From a virus (taxonomy: Duplodnaviria; Heunggongvirae; Uroviricota; Caudoviricetes): 5,944 nt of DNA. Location of the stretch: IMG/VR virus record IMGVR_UViG_2531839200_000013; one strand, given 5' to 3'. Position numbers: made by a program. Below are positions 1 through 3,000 of the stretch, in pieces (positions within the stretch are counted from its first letter, which is position 1; every line of letters begins with the position of its first letter).

Positions 1-3000
1 ATTACAGATTTAAGGGTGAACAAATCCCTGCCATTGCTGGCATATAAGAATGAAATCGGATGTTTATTACGGAACTGTTTTAAAGACCTGCCGGGATTTC
101 GTTATTATCCTGGTGAATAACTTTATCGACAGGGTAACAGTTACCGGGAATTTTCTGTTCGGTTGCTGCAGTCACACACTCCTGCATTGTCCTGTGAACA
201 CTGACTGCAATATCAACTGGCTCTCCGGAAACAAGAAAAACTGTCAGAACAAGTGCAAATGCTGTATTCATTGCCAGCATCCTTTTTGTATCGGACGTAA
301 ACGGGCCAGCATTGAAAGAATGCATATTTTATTTAATAACTCCCGTTCGTGTTTTCTCTTGTTAATGGCATCTTCAGTAAATACAGGGTTACTGATAGTG
401 ACACCAATTTCAAAACAACCTTCAGACGTATTAACGTTTGGTAATAACGTTTCCATTATCGCGTCCTCAACAATGAATTTTGTGATGCGGTGCCTGGTGC
501 CTCCAGGTGACGTTAACCAGTTAACAATTAACGCCGGATACAGAGAATCCACCCATAACACTGTTTTTAGCTTTAACTGTTCCGCGTGCGCTTAGCCGCA
601 TTCACTGCATCACAAAATTCACTTTAAAAAGGGCGGACATCAGTTCATGGGCAAACAGATGCCGCCAAACGTCACCAGAAAATTGATAACAGAGGGCGTT
701 GCAGCGGGGTTGTCACTTAAGCGTATGGTCAACCTGACAACCCGGTGTCCTCAACGGGGAAGGAATAACCCCGCCATACTTACCGCTGCGCCATTTCGCG
801 GAGTGCCACAACCGGAAGCGCACGGTCGACGAAAATTTAACGACAGGCTATCTATGAACCAGCAACCTCGCCGTGCGCTTTCGCGTTATGCTCTGACTTT
901 TCAGAGAAATATCCTTTCAGTAAACTGTCAGTGCCGGATGTTCACCCGTGTCCGGCGCACGCACTCCACTTCACCCGTGGAGAACTCCTTAATTACCAAC
1001 CCTCAGGAGGGTGAATGTTAAAATCAACTCTTATTGCTAAATGCCTTTATCAAAATCGCATGGTAAGCAGCATTTCAATAGGCGAGTCTGCAGTTAAAAG
1101 TATTTTCGAAGAGTACTTTCCCGGGCATGATTTTAATAAATGGAATACCAAATTACCGCCAGCAGTTTCAACGCGTATTCTGAAAGCAACCGAAAGAGCA
1201 AGTACAATTCGCGTTAACTATTTCATTAAAGATTTGTGGGATCTTTGATATCCACAGAGCCTAAAGTATGTGCATATGGATGTGCTATTATGCGCCCTCG
1301 CAGATTTGCATCATTTTCTAAATTCACTGAACGAAACAGGGCATCAACAAGGCTCTGTACAATGCAAAGGCAATCGAAGACTGTCGCCGTTTCTGTTTTG
1401 ATTGATGAAAGAACATGGCCATTCACGCAAACAGAAATTACCCGTTTATTAACATCGCTTTCCTGCTTTTGATTATCAGAACCATATAGCCCAGAAAAAG
1501 CATTGCGCACATTACGAACCATATTATCGATGGTTTCTTTTTCTGCGGTACTAAGGTCAAGAGTAGCCAGTTGTGAACGAACTATATTCGATGCCATTTC
1601 CTGTAATGGCGTTGGTAAATCTTTAAATTCCATTATTAGCCTCGTTGGTTAGCTATTAACGTGGGTATGTAATCATTCTGGCAATGCTTAATGCCGCTGC
1701 TTTTTCCAGATTGGTGATATCCTGCTCCAGAGCGGACAGATTTTCAGCCTGCTTAGCCCTGGCTTCATTGGCCCATTTCAGGTCCTGCACCGCCTTAATT
1801 TTCTGGTGCATCCACTCATAAAGTTCATCATCGGTATAGTCTGGCGCGATGATGACGGGGTCTCGTTTCTGCATGTCGGCTCCTTGTGGTTAGCGTTGCC
1901 TGCTTTTTAACCACGTCAGGCGAGGTGGTATCCTCTGAGGGGTCTGTTACTCGAGAGGAAATTGGTTATGAATACAATCAAGTTTTCTTGCCCAGAATGT
2001 GGTGGCTAAGTCTTTGACACATCCTTTAAGCCGCAGGGCTCTGACAGTTTCGCGGGAGCCATCTGCAAAAATTGTGGTCACCTTGTAACTGAAGATGAGT
2101 CCTCGCAGTTCGATGACGAAATCGTTGACAATATCTTCGGTGCACTCACCAGAGACTTTCTGAAGTAAAGGCGCATACCGCTTAGTTACCGCTCTGATAA
2201 CTCTTACCTGTCCGGCAATGGCGCTGATATCAATATAAAGCGCCATCGCTGTTTCTTTGCTGATCCCTGGACGCCTTCCATTCTGATGTTTGACTTCGCC
2301 CACTGAGAAATCCTCTGCTTCCCCTTAACGCCGGGTAGCGGAACTGTTTGCTGAGAACACCGTGCGGTGTCTTGATGAGTAGAATTTAGAATAGCCTAAG
2401 AGTTATGGTCAAGCTTTTTGTGTAGAAAAACCTAAGCTTCTTGATGTAAAAAACACAAGTATTTGAAAGTTTGTGCTTTTTATTACAGAGAGTTGCGAAA
2501 AAAAGGGGGGTTATTTATTTGCGCTTCTTTTGCGAGCTTTGAGTAGTTCTTCAAAAAGTTTGTTGAAATTCTCAACTCGAGCACGCATCTCTGACAACAG
2601 AGCCTTTTGCTCTGACTCAGGCAGTGCGTCGAACAGTTGAAGCAACTCTTTTTGATCTTCTGTCAGATTGACTGGCTGATTATCTGGGATCGGTTCGCCT
2701 GGTTGCTTATCTTCATCTCCAAAAAGAAGCCAAGTCGGCGAGCACTGAAGCGCCTGGCTCAGTGCGAATAATCTCTTCCCCGCTGGCTGTGTTTCATCTC
2801 TTTCCCATTGAGAAATTGTTACGTGAGCCACTTTGACCAGCTTACCTAATGCGGCCTGAGACAGTTTTAATTTTTTTCGCCTGTATAAGAGGCGAGCACC
2901 GAAGGTTTCGTTTTTCATATTAGGTAATTCTAATTTTTCTTGACTTAGGTTTCTCTACGATCTAGTTTCCTTAGGAAAATCTAAGGGGTTCGATATGTTG

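What the first reader, a model, noticed from the sequence alone, without database searches (positions are those of the whole stretch)
2386..2984. Candidate operator consensus TTAG-N6-CTAA present three times at the divergent switch and again at the leftward promoter
Two perfect 14-bp palindromes (2920-2933 and 2971-2984) and one near-perfect copy (2945-2958) sit between the repressor and Cro-like genes, spaced 24-26 bp, an arrangement like lambda OR1-OR3. A fourth perfect copy (2386-2399) overlaps the -10 of the predicted leftward promoter, with a degenerate fifth at 2422-2435. This is an internally consistent, testable operator set for the DicA-like repressor and/or the Cro-like protein, read directly from the sequence.
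Basis: seen in the sequence. Interest (0 to 1): 0.55.

Follow-up and report, generated by a model that had tools for sequence, protein, structure and literature searches.

The report
DicA-type prophage switch operator sites
The five short repeats are very probably the docking sites for the repressor and Cro-like proteins of a common E. coli O157-type prophage switch, laid out almost base for base like the well-studied phage P22 and K-12 Qin (dicA/dicC) switches, so the finding is sound but ordinary.

Summary
TTAG-N6-CTAA occurs exactly three times in the window (0.06 expected), with two one-mismatch copies. These five are the only matches in a whole 44-kb copy of the prophage.

- The window is the dicA/dicC-type immunity region of an EHEC prophage ("PPompW"). 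This switch region occurs in 751 of 5,426 complete E. coli genomes.
- The K-12 Qin DicA operator Oc, validated in vivo, has the same core, and a mutation inside CTAA abolishes binding.
- The sites are collinear with P22 OR3-OR2-OR1 and OL1-OL2.
- The repressor's N-terminal domain matches P22 C2 (E = 1e-21). The Cro-like protein matches P22 Cro.
- In 35 non-redundant relatives, core positions are 94% conserved, against 68% between sites.
- Published O157:H7 genetics used this exact gene pair and showed reciprocal repression, but mapped no operators.

Caveats: the sites are symmetric only in the outer 4+4 bases, and in Qin only Oc bound DicA when tested alone.

One extra result: repressor residue 22 tracks the base flanking TTAG (Arg with G, Ala/Ser with C). 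The Cro-like helix does not.

Verdict: a new member of a known kind, of low to moderate interest.

The parts
2971..2984 (+). OR1-equivalent operator (Qin Oc / P22 OR1 position), TTAGGAAAATCTAA. It covers about -4 to +10 of the rightward promoter and runs into the Cro-like gene's Shine-Dalgarno sequence.
   Evidence: Exact motif hit. Same position as Qin Oc, which binds DicA in vivo. Core column identity 0.96 in 35 non-redundant loci.
2945..2958 (+). OR2-equivalent operator, TTAGGTTTCTCTAC (one mismatch: CTAC). It starts at the last base of the -35 and fills the promoter spacer.
   Evidence: It aligns base for base with P22 OR2, which also begins at the last base of TTGACT. It is a full site only in the window's operator class and is degenerate in the Qin class.
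2920..2933 (+). OR3-equivalent operator (Qin Oa / P22 OR3 position), TTAGGTAATTCTAA, 1 bp from the repressor start codon (only A2919 lies between the site and CAT 2916-2918). It contains a -10-like TAGAAT on the minus strand.
   Evidence: Exact hit. Collinear with P22 and Qin, which share the CAT + 2 bp + TAG... register. Core identity 0.99, the highest of the five.
2386..2399 (-). OL1-equivalent operator (minus strand TTAGGCTATTCTAA), in the spacer of the leftward promoter and overlapping the first 3 bases of its -10.
   Evidence: Collinear with the Qin dicBp site and P22 OL1. Core identity 0.96.
2422..2435 (-). OL2-equivalent operator (minus strand TTAGGTTTTTCTAC), 10-23 bp upstream of the leftward -35. 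It matches OR2 at 13 of 14 bases.
   Evidence: Aligned with P22 OL2, GAAGAAAACTTAA. Core identity 0.91.
2940..2968 (+). Rightward promoter (dicCp / PR analogue): -35 TTGACT 2940-2945, 17-bp spacer, -10 TAGTTT 2963-2968. Predicted start near 2975.
   Evidence: Read from the sequence. The -35 is essentially invariant in 35 loci. It is homologous to the Qin dicC promoter, whose start was mapped by 5'RACE (PMC3441716). The consensus scanner did not call it because the -10 is weak.
2383..2412 (-). Leftward promoter (dicBp / PL analogue): -35 TTGACC 2412-2407, 18-bp spacer, -10 TAAATT 2388-2383.
   Evidence: Promoter scan. The -35 position is shared with Qin and P22 (GGTCAA on the + strand), though only partly conserved across the 35 loci (column identity 0.49-1.0).
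2927..2932 (-). Putative -10 (TAGAAT) of the repressor's own promoter, inside OR3. It would start transcription about 2 nt before the ATG, giving a near-leaderless mRNA like lambda PRM. The -35 position (GAGAAA, 2955-2950) is poor and lies inside OR2.
   Evidence: Inference from the sequence. The TTAGAATT half of OR3 is conserved in nearly all relatives. Not called by the scanner. No start site has been mapped.
2511..2918 (-). DicA-like repressor gene, 135 aa: an HTH_3 N-terminal domain and a short helical C-terminal part.
   Evidence: Pfam HTH_3, E = 4e-14, with no peptidase or S24 hit. 63% identical to K-12 DicA. N-terminal domain matches P22 C2 at E = 1e-21.
2995..3222 (+). DicC / P22-Cro-like gene, 75 aa.
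   Evidence: Pfam P22_Cro, E = 3e-13. 83% identical to K-12 DicC. Matches P22 Cro structure 1RZS, E = 6e-7.
3206..3757 (+). YdaT-family, CII-like regulator gene, the second gene of the rightward operon.
   Evidence: Pfam YdaT_toxin. PHROG 163, 'CII-like transcriptional activator', E = 3e-40.
268..2303 (-). Leftward operon controlled by OL: 118-aa ORF (1947-2303), ydfC-like (1656-1874), 135-aa ORF (1226-1633), DicF-like sRNA (631-680) and DicB (268-456). This is the dicBF operon analogue.
   Evidence: ORF list. PHROG hits. DicF Rfam match of 43.5 bits, E = 1e-7, below the gathering score of 48. PPompW annotation.

Best explanation
The five TTAG-N6-CTAA sites are the operators of a P22-type, DicA/DicC-type prophage immunity switch.

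Inferred working model:
- Dimers of the 135-aa DicA-like repressor bind OR1 (2971-2984, over the start of the rightward promoter) and OR2 (2945-2958, between its -35 and -10). This shuts off the Cro-like / CII-like / replication operon.
- The repressor also binds OL1 (2386-2399, between the -35 and -10 of the leftward promoter) and OL2 (2422-2435). This shuts off the leftward operon that carries DicF and DicB.
- OR3 (2920-2933) overlaps the repressor gene's own -10-like element and its start codon region. When the Cro-like protein, or excess repressor, occupies it, repressor synthesis stops.
- The repressor has no RecA-cleavable domain. Derepression is therefore expected to come from an antirepressor (Rem in Qin) or from stochastic switching.

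Shown: the sites, their enrichment, their positions relative to the promoters, their homology to validated operators, their conservation, and (from the literature) reciprocal repression for this gene pair.
Inferred: which protein fills which site, cooperativity, and the near-leaderless repressor transcript.
For: - Enrichment and exclusivity of the motif in the window and in the whole prophage.
- Qin Oc (TTGTTAGTCATAACTAACAA) binds DicA in vivo, and a CTAA-to-CTCA change abolishes binding (PMC3441716). Qin has TTAG-N6-CTAA at the same three positions.
- Collinearity with P22 OR3/OR2/OR1 and OL1/OL2. The P22 operator consensus ATTTAAGATATCTTAAAT spans the same 14 bp (PMC5175364).
- Homology of the proteins: DicA 63% and DicC 83% identity; P22 C2 N-terminal domain E = 1e-21; P22 Cro E = 6e-7.
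- Footprint across 35 non-redundant loci from Escherichia, Pantoea, Enterobacter, Erwinia, Buttiauxella, Citrobacter, Yersinia and IMG/VR contigs. Core column identity is 0.936, centre 0.805 and between sites 0.682. None of 20,000 permutations reached the observed core-versus-rest difference.
- Promoter geometry.
- O157:H7 genetics on this exact gene pair: DicA represses dicC, DicC represses dicA, and a dicC deletion lowers dicB (PMC6915034; primers located in the window).
- DicF-like RNA and DicB lie downstream of the leftward promoter.
- Rem acts as an antirepressor of DicA in Qin, and a rem gene is annotated in PPompW.
Against: - No protein-DNA binding data exist for this locus in the literature I could search (the word 'operator' does not occur in the O157 study).
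- In Qin, the sites equivalent to OR3 (Oa) and OR2 (Om) did not bind DicA in an in-vivo assay when cloned alone. That result was reported as 'data not shown'.
- The rightward -10 (TAGTTT) and the proposed repressor promoter were not called by the consensus scanner.
- OR3 and OL1 overlap -10-like hexamers, so part of their conservation could reflect promoter function.
- No third left-hand site (OL3) was found.
- The relatives compared are related by descent, so the conservation statistic overstates independence.
Confidence: 0.85

Rival explanations
1. Only some of the five sites are working repressor operators (OR1 and OL1, perhaps OL2). OR3 and OR2 would then be sites mainly for the Cro-like protein, sites that need cooperative help, or promoter elements retained for other reasons. 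This is the behaviour reported for Oa and Om in Qin.
For: In Qin, DicA bound Oc but neither Om nor Oa when each was cloned alone (PMC3441716). OR2 carries a CTAC half-site and is degenerate in the whole Qin class. OR3 overlaps a -10-like TAGAAT and the start codon region.
Against: OR3 has the highest core conservation of all five sites (0.99), and it keeps the TTAG...CTAA symmetry while its centre varies. In the window's class OR2 and OL2 are full sites, nearly identical to each other (13 of 14 bases) and conserved. The P22 sites at the same positions are among the six natural operators that P22 C2 binds (P22 OR2 and OR3 located). The Qin assay tested isolated sites, so cooperative binding could not show.
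Confidence: 0.25
2. The conservation reflects promoter hexamers and translation signals that happen to contain TTAG/CTAA, not protein binding sites.
For: OL1 overlaps the leftward -10. OR3 contains TAGAAT. OR1 runs into the Shine-Dalgarno sequence. OR2 touches the -35.
Against: The conserved unit is a dyad with fixed 4-6-4 geometry at all five places, and promoter elements do not need that. The outer half-sites that overlap no hexamer are equally conserved. A point mutation in the CTAA of Oc abolishes DicA binding in Qin.
Confidence: 0.05
3. The sites are bound by a different factor, for example the YdaT-like CII analogue, H-NS/Cnu or YjdC, rather than by the DicA-like and Cro-like proteins.
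For: YdaT of the Rac prophage binds its repressor-cro intergenic region (PMC11879457). YjdC and Cnu/H-NS have been reported at the Qin dic locus.
Against: The YdaT box is TTGATT-N6-AATCAA, a different sequence. A weak look-alike sits elsewhere in the window, at 3199-3216. The motif matches the operator type of the repressor's closest structural relative, P22 C2.
Confidence: 0.03
4. Chance clustering of an AT-rich pattern in AT-rich intergenic DNA.
For: The bare 8-base pattern is expected about 80 times in a 5.5-Mb genome (my arithmetic). The count at one mismatch or fewer is not significant on its own.
Against: 0 of 200 shuffles give three exact hits. The five sites are the only matches in 44 kb. 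Positions are conserved across genera.
Confidence: 0.01

Closest known systems
Qin (Kim) cryptic prophage dicA-dicC immunity locus of E. coli K-12: operators Oa/Om/Oc and the dicBp operators
   Same: Orthologous repressor (63% identity) and Cro-like protein (83% identity). Identical TTAG-N6-CTAA core. Same positions relative to the repressor start codon, the -35 TTGACT, the Cro-like start and the leftward -35. The leftward operon carries DicF and DicB. The repressor is 135 aa with no RecA-cleavage domain.
   Different: The flanks differ: Qin sites read tgTTAG...CTAAca, the 20-bp Oc palindrome, while the window reads c/tTTAG...CTAAg. The repressor's helix 2 differs (TQRSLAK in Qin, SQAALGK here). 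The middle right-hand site is a full site here and degenerate in Qin. The first gene of the leftward operon differs (ydfA in Qin, a 118-aa ORF here).
Phage P22 immC: c2 repressor, cro, and the OR1-3 / OL1-3 operators
   Same: The repressor's N-terminal domain is a close homologue (E = 1e-21), including an identical QAALGK in helix 2. The Cro is of the P22_Cro family. OR3, OR2, OR1, OL1 and OL2 align position for position. Each operator spans the same 14 bp (TTAAG-N4-CTTAA against TTAGG-N4-TCTAA). Some relatives of the window use TTAAG half-sites.
   Different: P22 C2 is 216 aa with a RecA-cleavable C-terminal domain, which this repressor lacks. Position 4 of the half-site is A in P22 and mostly G here. 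The repressor has His32 where P22 C2 has Asn32. No OL3 was found. P22 has gene 24 (an N analogue) and nutL downstream of PL; here the leftward operon is dicBF-like.
Phage lambda OR/OL
   Same: Divergent repressor and cro genes. Three right-hand sites about 25 bp apart overlap two opposed promoters. Left-hand sites overlap PL. The logic is a bistable switch.
   Different: There is no sequence relationship between the operators: lambda's are 17 bp with a TATCACCGC-type half-site (from my own knowledge). Lambda Cro has a different fold family from P22-type Cro. This is an analogy of layout only.
Phage 434 operators (ACAA-N6-TTGT)
   Same: The same 4-6-4 layout of a 14-bp operator. 434 Cro is a detectable relative of the repressor's HTH domain (E = 3e-4).
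   Different: Different half-site sequence and only a distant protein relationship. The 434 operator sequence is from my own knowledge.

Membership tests
DicA/DicC-type (Qin-like) prophage immunity locus | A short DicA-type repressor of about 135 aa (HTH_3 N-terminal domain, no S24 peptidase domain), divergent from a DicC-type Cro | tested here: met
   (HTH_3 only; P22_Cro family); 63% identity to DicA over 131 aa; 83% identity to DicC.
DicA/DicC-type (Qin-like) prophage immunity locus | Operator core identical to the validated Oc core, TTAG-N6-CTAA, at the Cro-proximal position | tested here: met
   Window site 2971-2984 is in the position of Qin Oc.
DicA/DicC-type (Qin-like) prophage immunity locus | The full 20-bp Oc palindrome, TTGTTAG-N6-CTAACAA (G/C flanks) | tested here: not met
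   The window sites have c/t flanks (cccTTAG...CTAAgga in the dicA orientation). All 10 Arg22 loci have g flanks and all 30 Ala/Ser22 loci have c at OR1. The window belongs to a sister operator class.
DicA/DicC-type (Qin-like) prophage immunity locus | A repressor-controlled promoter downstream of the repressor gene that drives an operon with DicF and DicB | tested here: met
   (promoter). (DicF-like RNA, 43.5 bits, below the gathering score of 48). (DicB family PHROG, full length). The regulation itself comes from the literature.
DicA/DicC-type (Qin-like) prophage immunity locus | Reciprocal repression between the two regulators | not testable with these tools
   Reported for this exact gene pair in O157:H7 (PMC6915034). 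The paper's primers map to window 2511-2533, 2945-2987 and 2995-3016.
P22-type immC operator architecture | Three right-hand sites collinear with OR3 (next to the repressor ATG), OR2 (starting at the end of the -35) and OR1 (at or after the -10) | tested here: met
   (alignment A4).
P22-type immC operator architecture | Three left-hand sites at PL | tested here: not met
   Only two are found. The region at the P22 OL3 position has no match at one mismatch or fewer.
P22-type immC operator architecture | A repressor with a LexA-like, RecA-cleavable C-terminal domain | tested here: not met
   The protein is 135 aa with no Peptidase_S24 hit. Homology to P22 C2 stops at about residue 69.
P22-type immC operator architecture | Repressor and Cro physically bind the sites | not testable with these tools
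   Needs EMSA, footprinting or ChIP.
Lambda OR/OL operators | 17-bp operators with the lambda consensus half-site | tested here: not met
   The window sites are 14-bp TTAG-N6-CTAA. The resemblance is in layout only.

The most novel reading that the evidence does not exclude
The DicA family may comprise at least two insulated immunity classes that share one operator core. In the first class, repressors with Arg22 read gTTAG. In the second, repressors with Ala or Ser at residue 22, as here, read c/tTTAG. The Cro-like proteins are exchanged between the classes and read only the shared core. If so, a Cro-like protein made by one DicA-type prophage could switch off the repressor gene of a co-resident prophage of the other class. 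That would couple induction of the several dicBF operons carried by EHEC strains.
Probability: 0.2. Interest if true: 0.5.

Novelty: new member of a known kind. Interest (0 to 1): 0.22.

Why it matters
This switch controls a DicF/DicB operon, which encodes cell-division and virulence-linked regulators. This version of it sits in about 14% of complete E. coli genomes, including O157:H7, O145, O55 and O103 strains. A concrete operator map, with promoter positions and a proposed specificity determinant (residue 22 paired with the flanking base), gives the existing O157:H7 genetics a testable molecular basis. It also allows designed point mutations that derepress or lock the switch. Conceptually it adds nothing new to the lambdoid-switch model, because the architecture is that of P22 and Qin.

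Tried and rejected
- Cro-like co-variation. I tested whether the Cro-like recognition helix varies together with the two operator flank classes. It does not. E. ruysiae and E. albertii have Qin-class operators with a window-type Cro helix (RLASVAAW). Yersinia (Qin class) and L070/L071 (window class) share nearly the same helix.
- Asymmetry as protein preference. I first read the consistent asymmetry TTAGG...TCTAA, with its orientation following the direction of lytic transcription, as the protein's preference. The wider set shows that OR1 is mostly symmetric (TTAGG...CCTAA) in relatives. The TCTAA halves of OR3 and OL1 coincide with -10-like hexamers. The asymmetry is therefore better explained by overlapping promoter elements and by lineage.
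- His32 and half-site position 4. I considered that His32 (Asn32 in P22 C2) explains the A-to-G change at position 4. This is weakened because relatives with His32 mix TTAAG and TTAGG half-sites.
- Leader RNA downstream of the leftward promoter. The RNAalifold run returned an empty structure at 0.0 kcal/mol. That is uninformative rather than negative, because it was run on a gapped MAFFT sub-alignment of heterogeneous sequences. The window's own fold is no better than shuffled sequence (z = -0.6).
- Rfam. At gathering thresholds nothing was found. DicF appears only below threshold.
- Literature. The original Bejar/Cam papers that define Oa, Om and Oc could not be read.
- Tools. Loci were not copied to the Python sandbox, so sequences were brought in through alignments.
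- Not done. I did not locate the other DicA-like loci of an O157 genome, so co-residence of the two operator classes was not tested directly.
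Full report
**Observation.** The window holds exactly three TTAG-N6-CTAA matches, at 2386, 2920 and 2971. Dinucleotide-preserving shuffles give 0.06 on average, and none of 200 reach three.

All five fit a tighter oriented pattern, TTAGG-N4-TCTA(A/C). The right-hand copies are on the + strand and the left-hand copies on the - strand. Nothing else in the window matches this pattern, even with one mismatch.

In a complete 44,350-bp copy of the same prophage (L002, PPompW_132418) the same five sites are again the only matches. 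The phrase "perfect 14-bp palindromes" is not: only the outer 4+4 bases are symmetric.

**What the locus is.** Bases 2250-3300 are 100% identical to chromosomes of O157:H7, O145:H28, O55:H7 and O103 strains. They are 99.9% identical to "PPompW" prophages, where the two genes are annotated dicA and dicC.

- The leftward gene (2918-2511) encodes a 135-aa HTH_3 protein that is 63% identical to K-12 DicA.
- The rightward gene (2995-3222) is a P22_Cro-family protein, 83% identical to DicC.
- Next rightward come a YdaT-family, CII-like regulator and then O-like and P-like replication genes.
- Leftward of the repressor gene, a promoter-like site (-35 TTGACC, 18-bp spacer, -10 TAAATT, minus strand, 2412-2383) precedes an operon. 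The operon ends with a DicF-like RNA (631-680, 43.5 bits, below the Rfam gathering score of 48) and DicB (268-456).

The "leftward promoter" is therefore the dicBp / PL analogue.

**Comparison with validated operators: Qin.** Yun et al. showed that DicA binds the 20-bp operator Oc, 5'-TTGTTAGTCATAACTAACAA. A single A-to-C change inside CTAA abolishes binding (PMC3441716).

In the window's orientation the Qin region reads CAT-ag-TTAGCTAATGCTAA (Oa) ... TTGACT ... TATCTT-g-TTAGTTATGACTAA (Oc) ... ATG. A further TTAG-N6-CTAA lies next to the -35 of dicBp. These are the same positions as in the window.

**Comparison with validated operators: P22.**
- The repressor's N-terminal domain matches P22 C2 (E = 1e-21; PDB 1ADR, and 2R1J and 3JXB solved with operator DNA). 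The Cro-like protein matches P22 Cro.
- P22 immC is collinear with the window. OR3 (TTAAGTCATCTTAA) lies 2 bp from the c2 start codon. OR2 begins at the last base of TTGACT. OR1 follows the -10. OL1 lies between the -35 and -10 of PL, and OL2 lies upstream of the -35.
- The P22 operator consensus ATTTAAGATATCTTAAAT (PMC5175364) spans the same 14 bp as the window's motif.

**Phylogenetic footprint.** I collected 11 loci from other genera and 80 IMG/VR loci, and aligned 40 of them.
- All five sites keep their positions.
- In 35 non-redundant sequences the mean column identity is 0.936 for the eight core positions, 0.805 for the six central ones and 0.682 for columns between sites. None of 20,000 permutations reached the observed difference between core and other columns.
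- The rightward -35 is essentially invariant.
- These sequences are related by descent, so the statistic is supportive, not a strict probability.

**Direct genetics on this locus.** The primers of Pan et al. 2019 (PMC6915034) map exactly to window 2511-2533, 2945-2987 and 2995-3016. That study showed that DicA overproduction represses dicC, that DicC overproduction represses dicA, and that deleting dicC lowers dicB. It never mentions operators.

**Mechanism (inferred).**
- OR1 covers about -4 to +10 of the rightward promoter, and OR2 fills its spacer. Repressor bound at these sites blocks the Cro-like / CII-like / replication operon.
- OL1 and OL2 bracket the leftward -35 and block the dicBF-type operon.
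- OR3 contains a minus-strand TAGAAT whose last base is 7 nt from position 2920. That implies a repressor mRNA with a 2-nt leader, resembling lambda PRM. The matching -35 position (GAGAAA) is poor and lies inside OR2. This fits the report that DicA activates its own gene in Qin.
- The repressor lacks an S24 domain. Induction should therefore go through an antirepressor, as shown for Rem in Qin. PPompW annotates a rem gene.

**Main caveat.** In Qin, Oa and Om cloned alone did not bind DicA in vivo; the result was given as "data not shown". Which protein fills OR3 and OR2 here is therefore open. In the window's lineage OR2 and OL2 are full, conserved sites that are nearly identical to each other (13 of 14 bases). 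In the Qin lineage OR2 is degenerate.

**Two operator classes.**
- Ten loci (Qin, E. ruysiae, E. albertii, Buttiauxella, Citrobacter, Yersinia) have Arg22 in helix 2 and g-flanked sites (tgTTAG...CTAAca).
- Thirty loci, including the window, have Ala or Ser at residue 22 and c/t-flanked sites. At OR1 the split is 10 of 10 against 30 of 30. P22 C2 also has Ala22, with a T flank.
- This may mark distinct immunities. It may also reflect very few evolutionary events.
- The Cro-like recognition helix does not follow the classes. The Cro-like protein therefore probably reads the shared core.

**Distribution.** The switch region (window 2900-3010) is present at 80% coverage or more in 751 of 5,426 complete E. 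coli genomes, with at most two places per genome.

**Verdict.** The system is a new member of the known P22/Qin kind. It has practical value for EHEC dicBF regulation but is not conceptually new.

Noticed in passing
window 631-680 (-): A full-length DicF-like sRNA: Rfam RF00039, 43.5 bits, E = 1e-7. This is below the gathering score of 48, so the default Rfam search misses it. It lies between the 135-aa ORF and DicB, as dicF does in Qin.
   Followed up: partly
window 2336-2378 (+), which is the 5' leader of the leftward transcript: The block GCGGAAC...CTGAG..CACCGTGCGGTG..TTGATG is conserved across genera, although the first gene downstream differs between loci. The small hairpin CACC-gcac-GGTG (transcript sense; 2358-2369 on the + strand) is replaced by CGGC-acaaca-GCCG in L011, L088 and L089, a possible compensatory change. 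RNAalifold on the gapped sub-alignment returned an empty structure (uninformative), and the window's own fold is no better than shuffles (z = -0.6). There is no lambda/P22-type boxA. Function unexplained.
   Followed up: partly
window 1947-2303 (-) and 1968-2168 (+): Two overlapping candidate genes on opposite strands. The annotated 118-aa minus-strand ORF has a GTG start and matches phrog_21318 only from Met20 onward. The plus-strand ORF has a good Shine-Dalgarno sequence and a zinc-ribbon-like pattern (CPEC...CKNC), but is interrupted by an in-frame TAA at 2007-2009. It matches phrog_4852 weakly (E = 3e-9). Which one is real is unclear.
   Followed up: partly
window about 4486 (within 3729-4768, +): A 1-bp deletion (GGG to GG) relative to the intact PPompW_132418 copy frameshifts the O-like / DnaT-domain replication gene. 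This prophage copy therefore probably cannot replicate.
   Followed up: yes
window 5307-5309, and from about 5605 to the end: A GAG-to-TAG nonsense codon at codon 18 of the gene that starts at 5256. Homology to PPompW then ends abruptly near 5605, where an insertion sequence begins (terminal repeat TGAACCGCCCCGGG...). Its transposase C-terminus lies at 5647-5937 (-) and hits rve_3 at E = 2e-12. The immunity region is intact while the neighbouring genes are decaying.
   Followed up: yes
window 3199-3216 (+): TTGAAC-AATGAA-AATCAC spans the ATG of the YdaT-like gene. It resembles the published YdaT box TTGATT-N6-AATCAA (9 of 12 bases), which likewise has the ydaT start codon in its spacer. It overlaps the end of the Cro-like coding sequence, so its conservation is not independent evidence.
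   Followed up: no
L006 and L007 (E. ruysiae, E. albertii), about 1250-1520; L011 compared with L070/L071: Mosaic switches: a Qin-class repressor and operators (Arg22, g flanks) combined with a Cro-like protein whose recognition helix is the window type (RLASVAAW). This suggests recombination inside the switch region and a Cro that tolerates both operator classes.
   Followed up: partly
L079-L087 (IMG/VR), OL1/OL2/OR2 positions: A sub-lineage with Ser22 mixes P22-like TTAAG half-sites and TTAGG half-sites within one phage. Position 4 of the half-site therefore appears to tolerate A or G in this family.
   Followed up: no
window 437-642 (-): A weak Rfam match to STnc100 (32.5 bits against a gathering score of 47, E = 9e-5). 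It covers the region between the DicF-like RNA and the start of DicB. Probably the conserved dicF-dicB spacer rather than a separate RNA.
   Followed up: no
E. coli O157:H7 PV15-279, NZ_AP018488.1: The 1,051-bp query has three places in this genome, but the 111-bp switch region has only one. The strain therefore carries other DicA/DicC-like loci with different operator regions.
   Followed up: no
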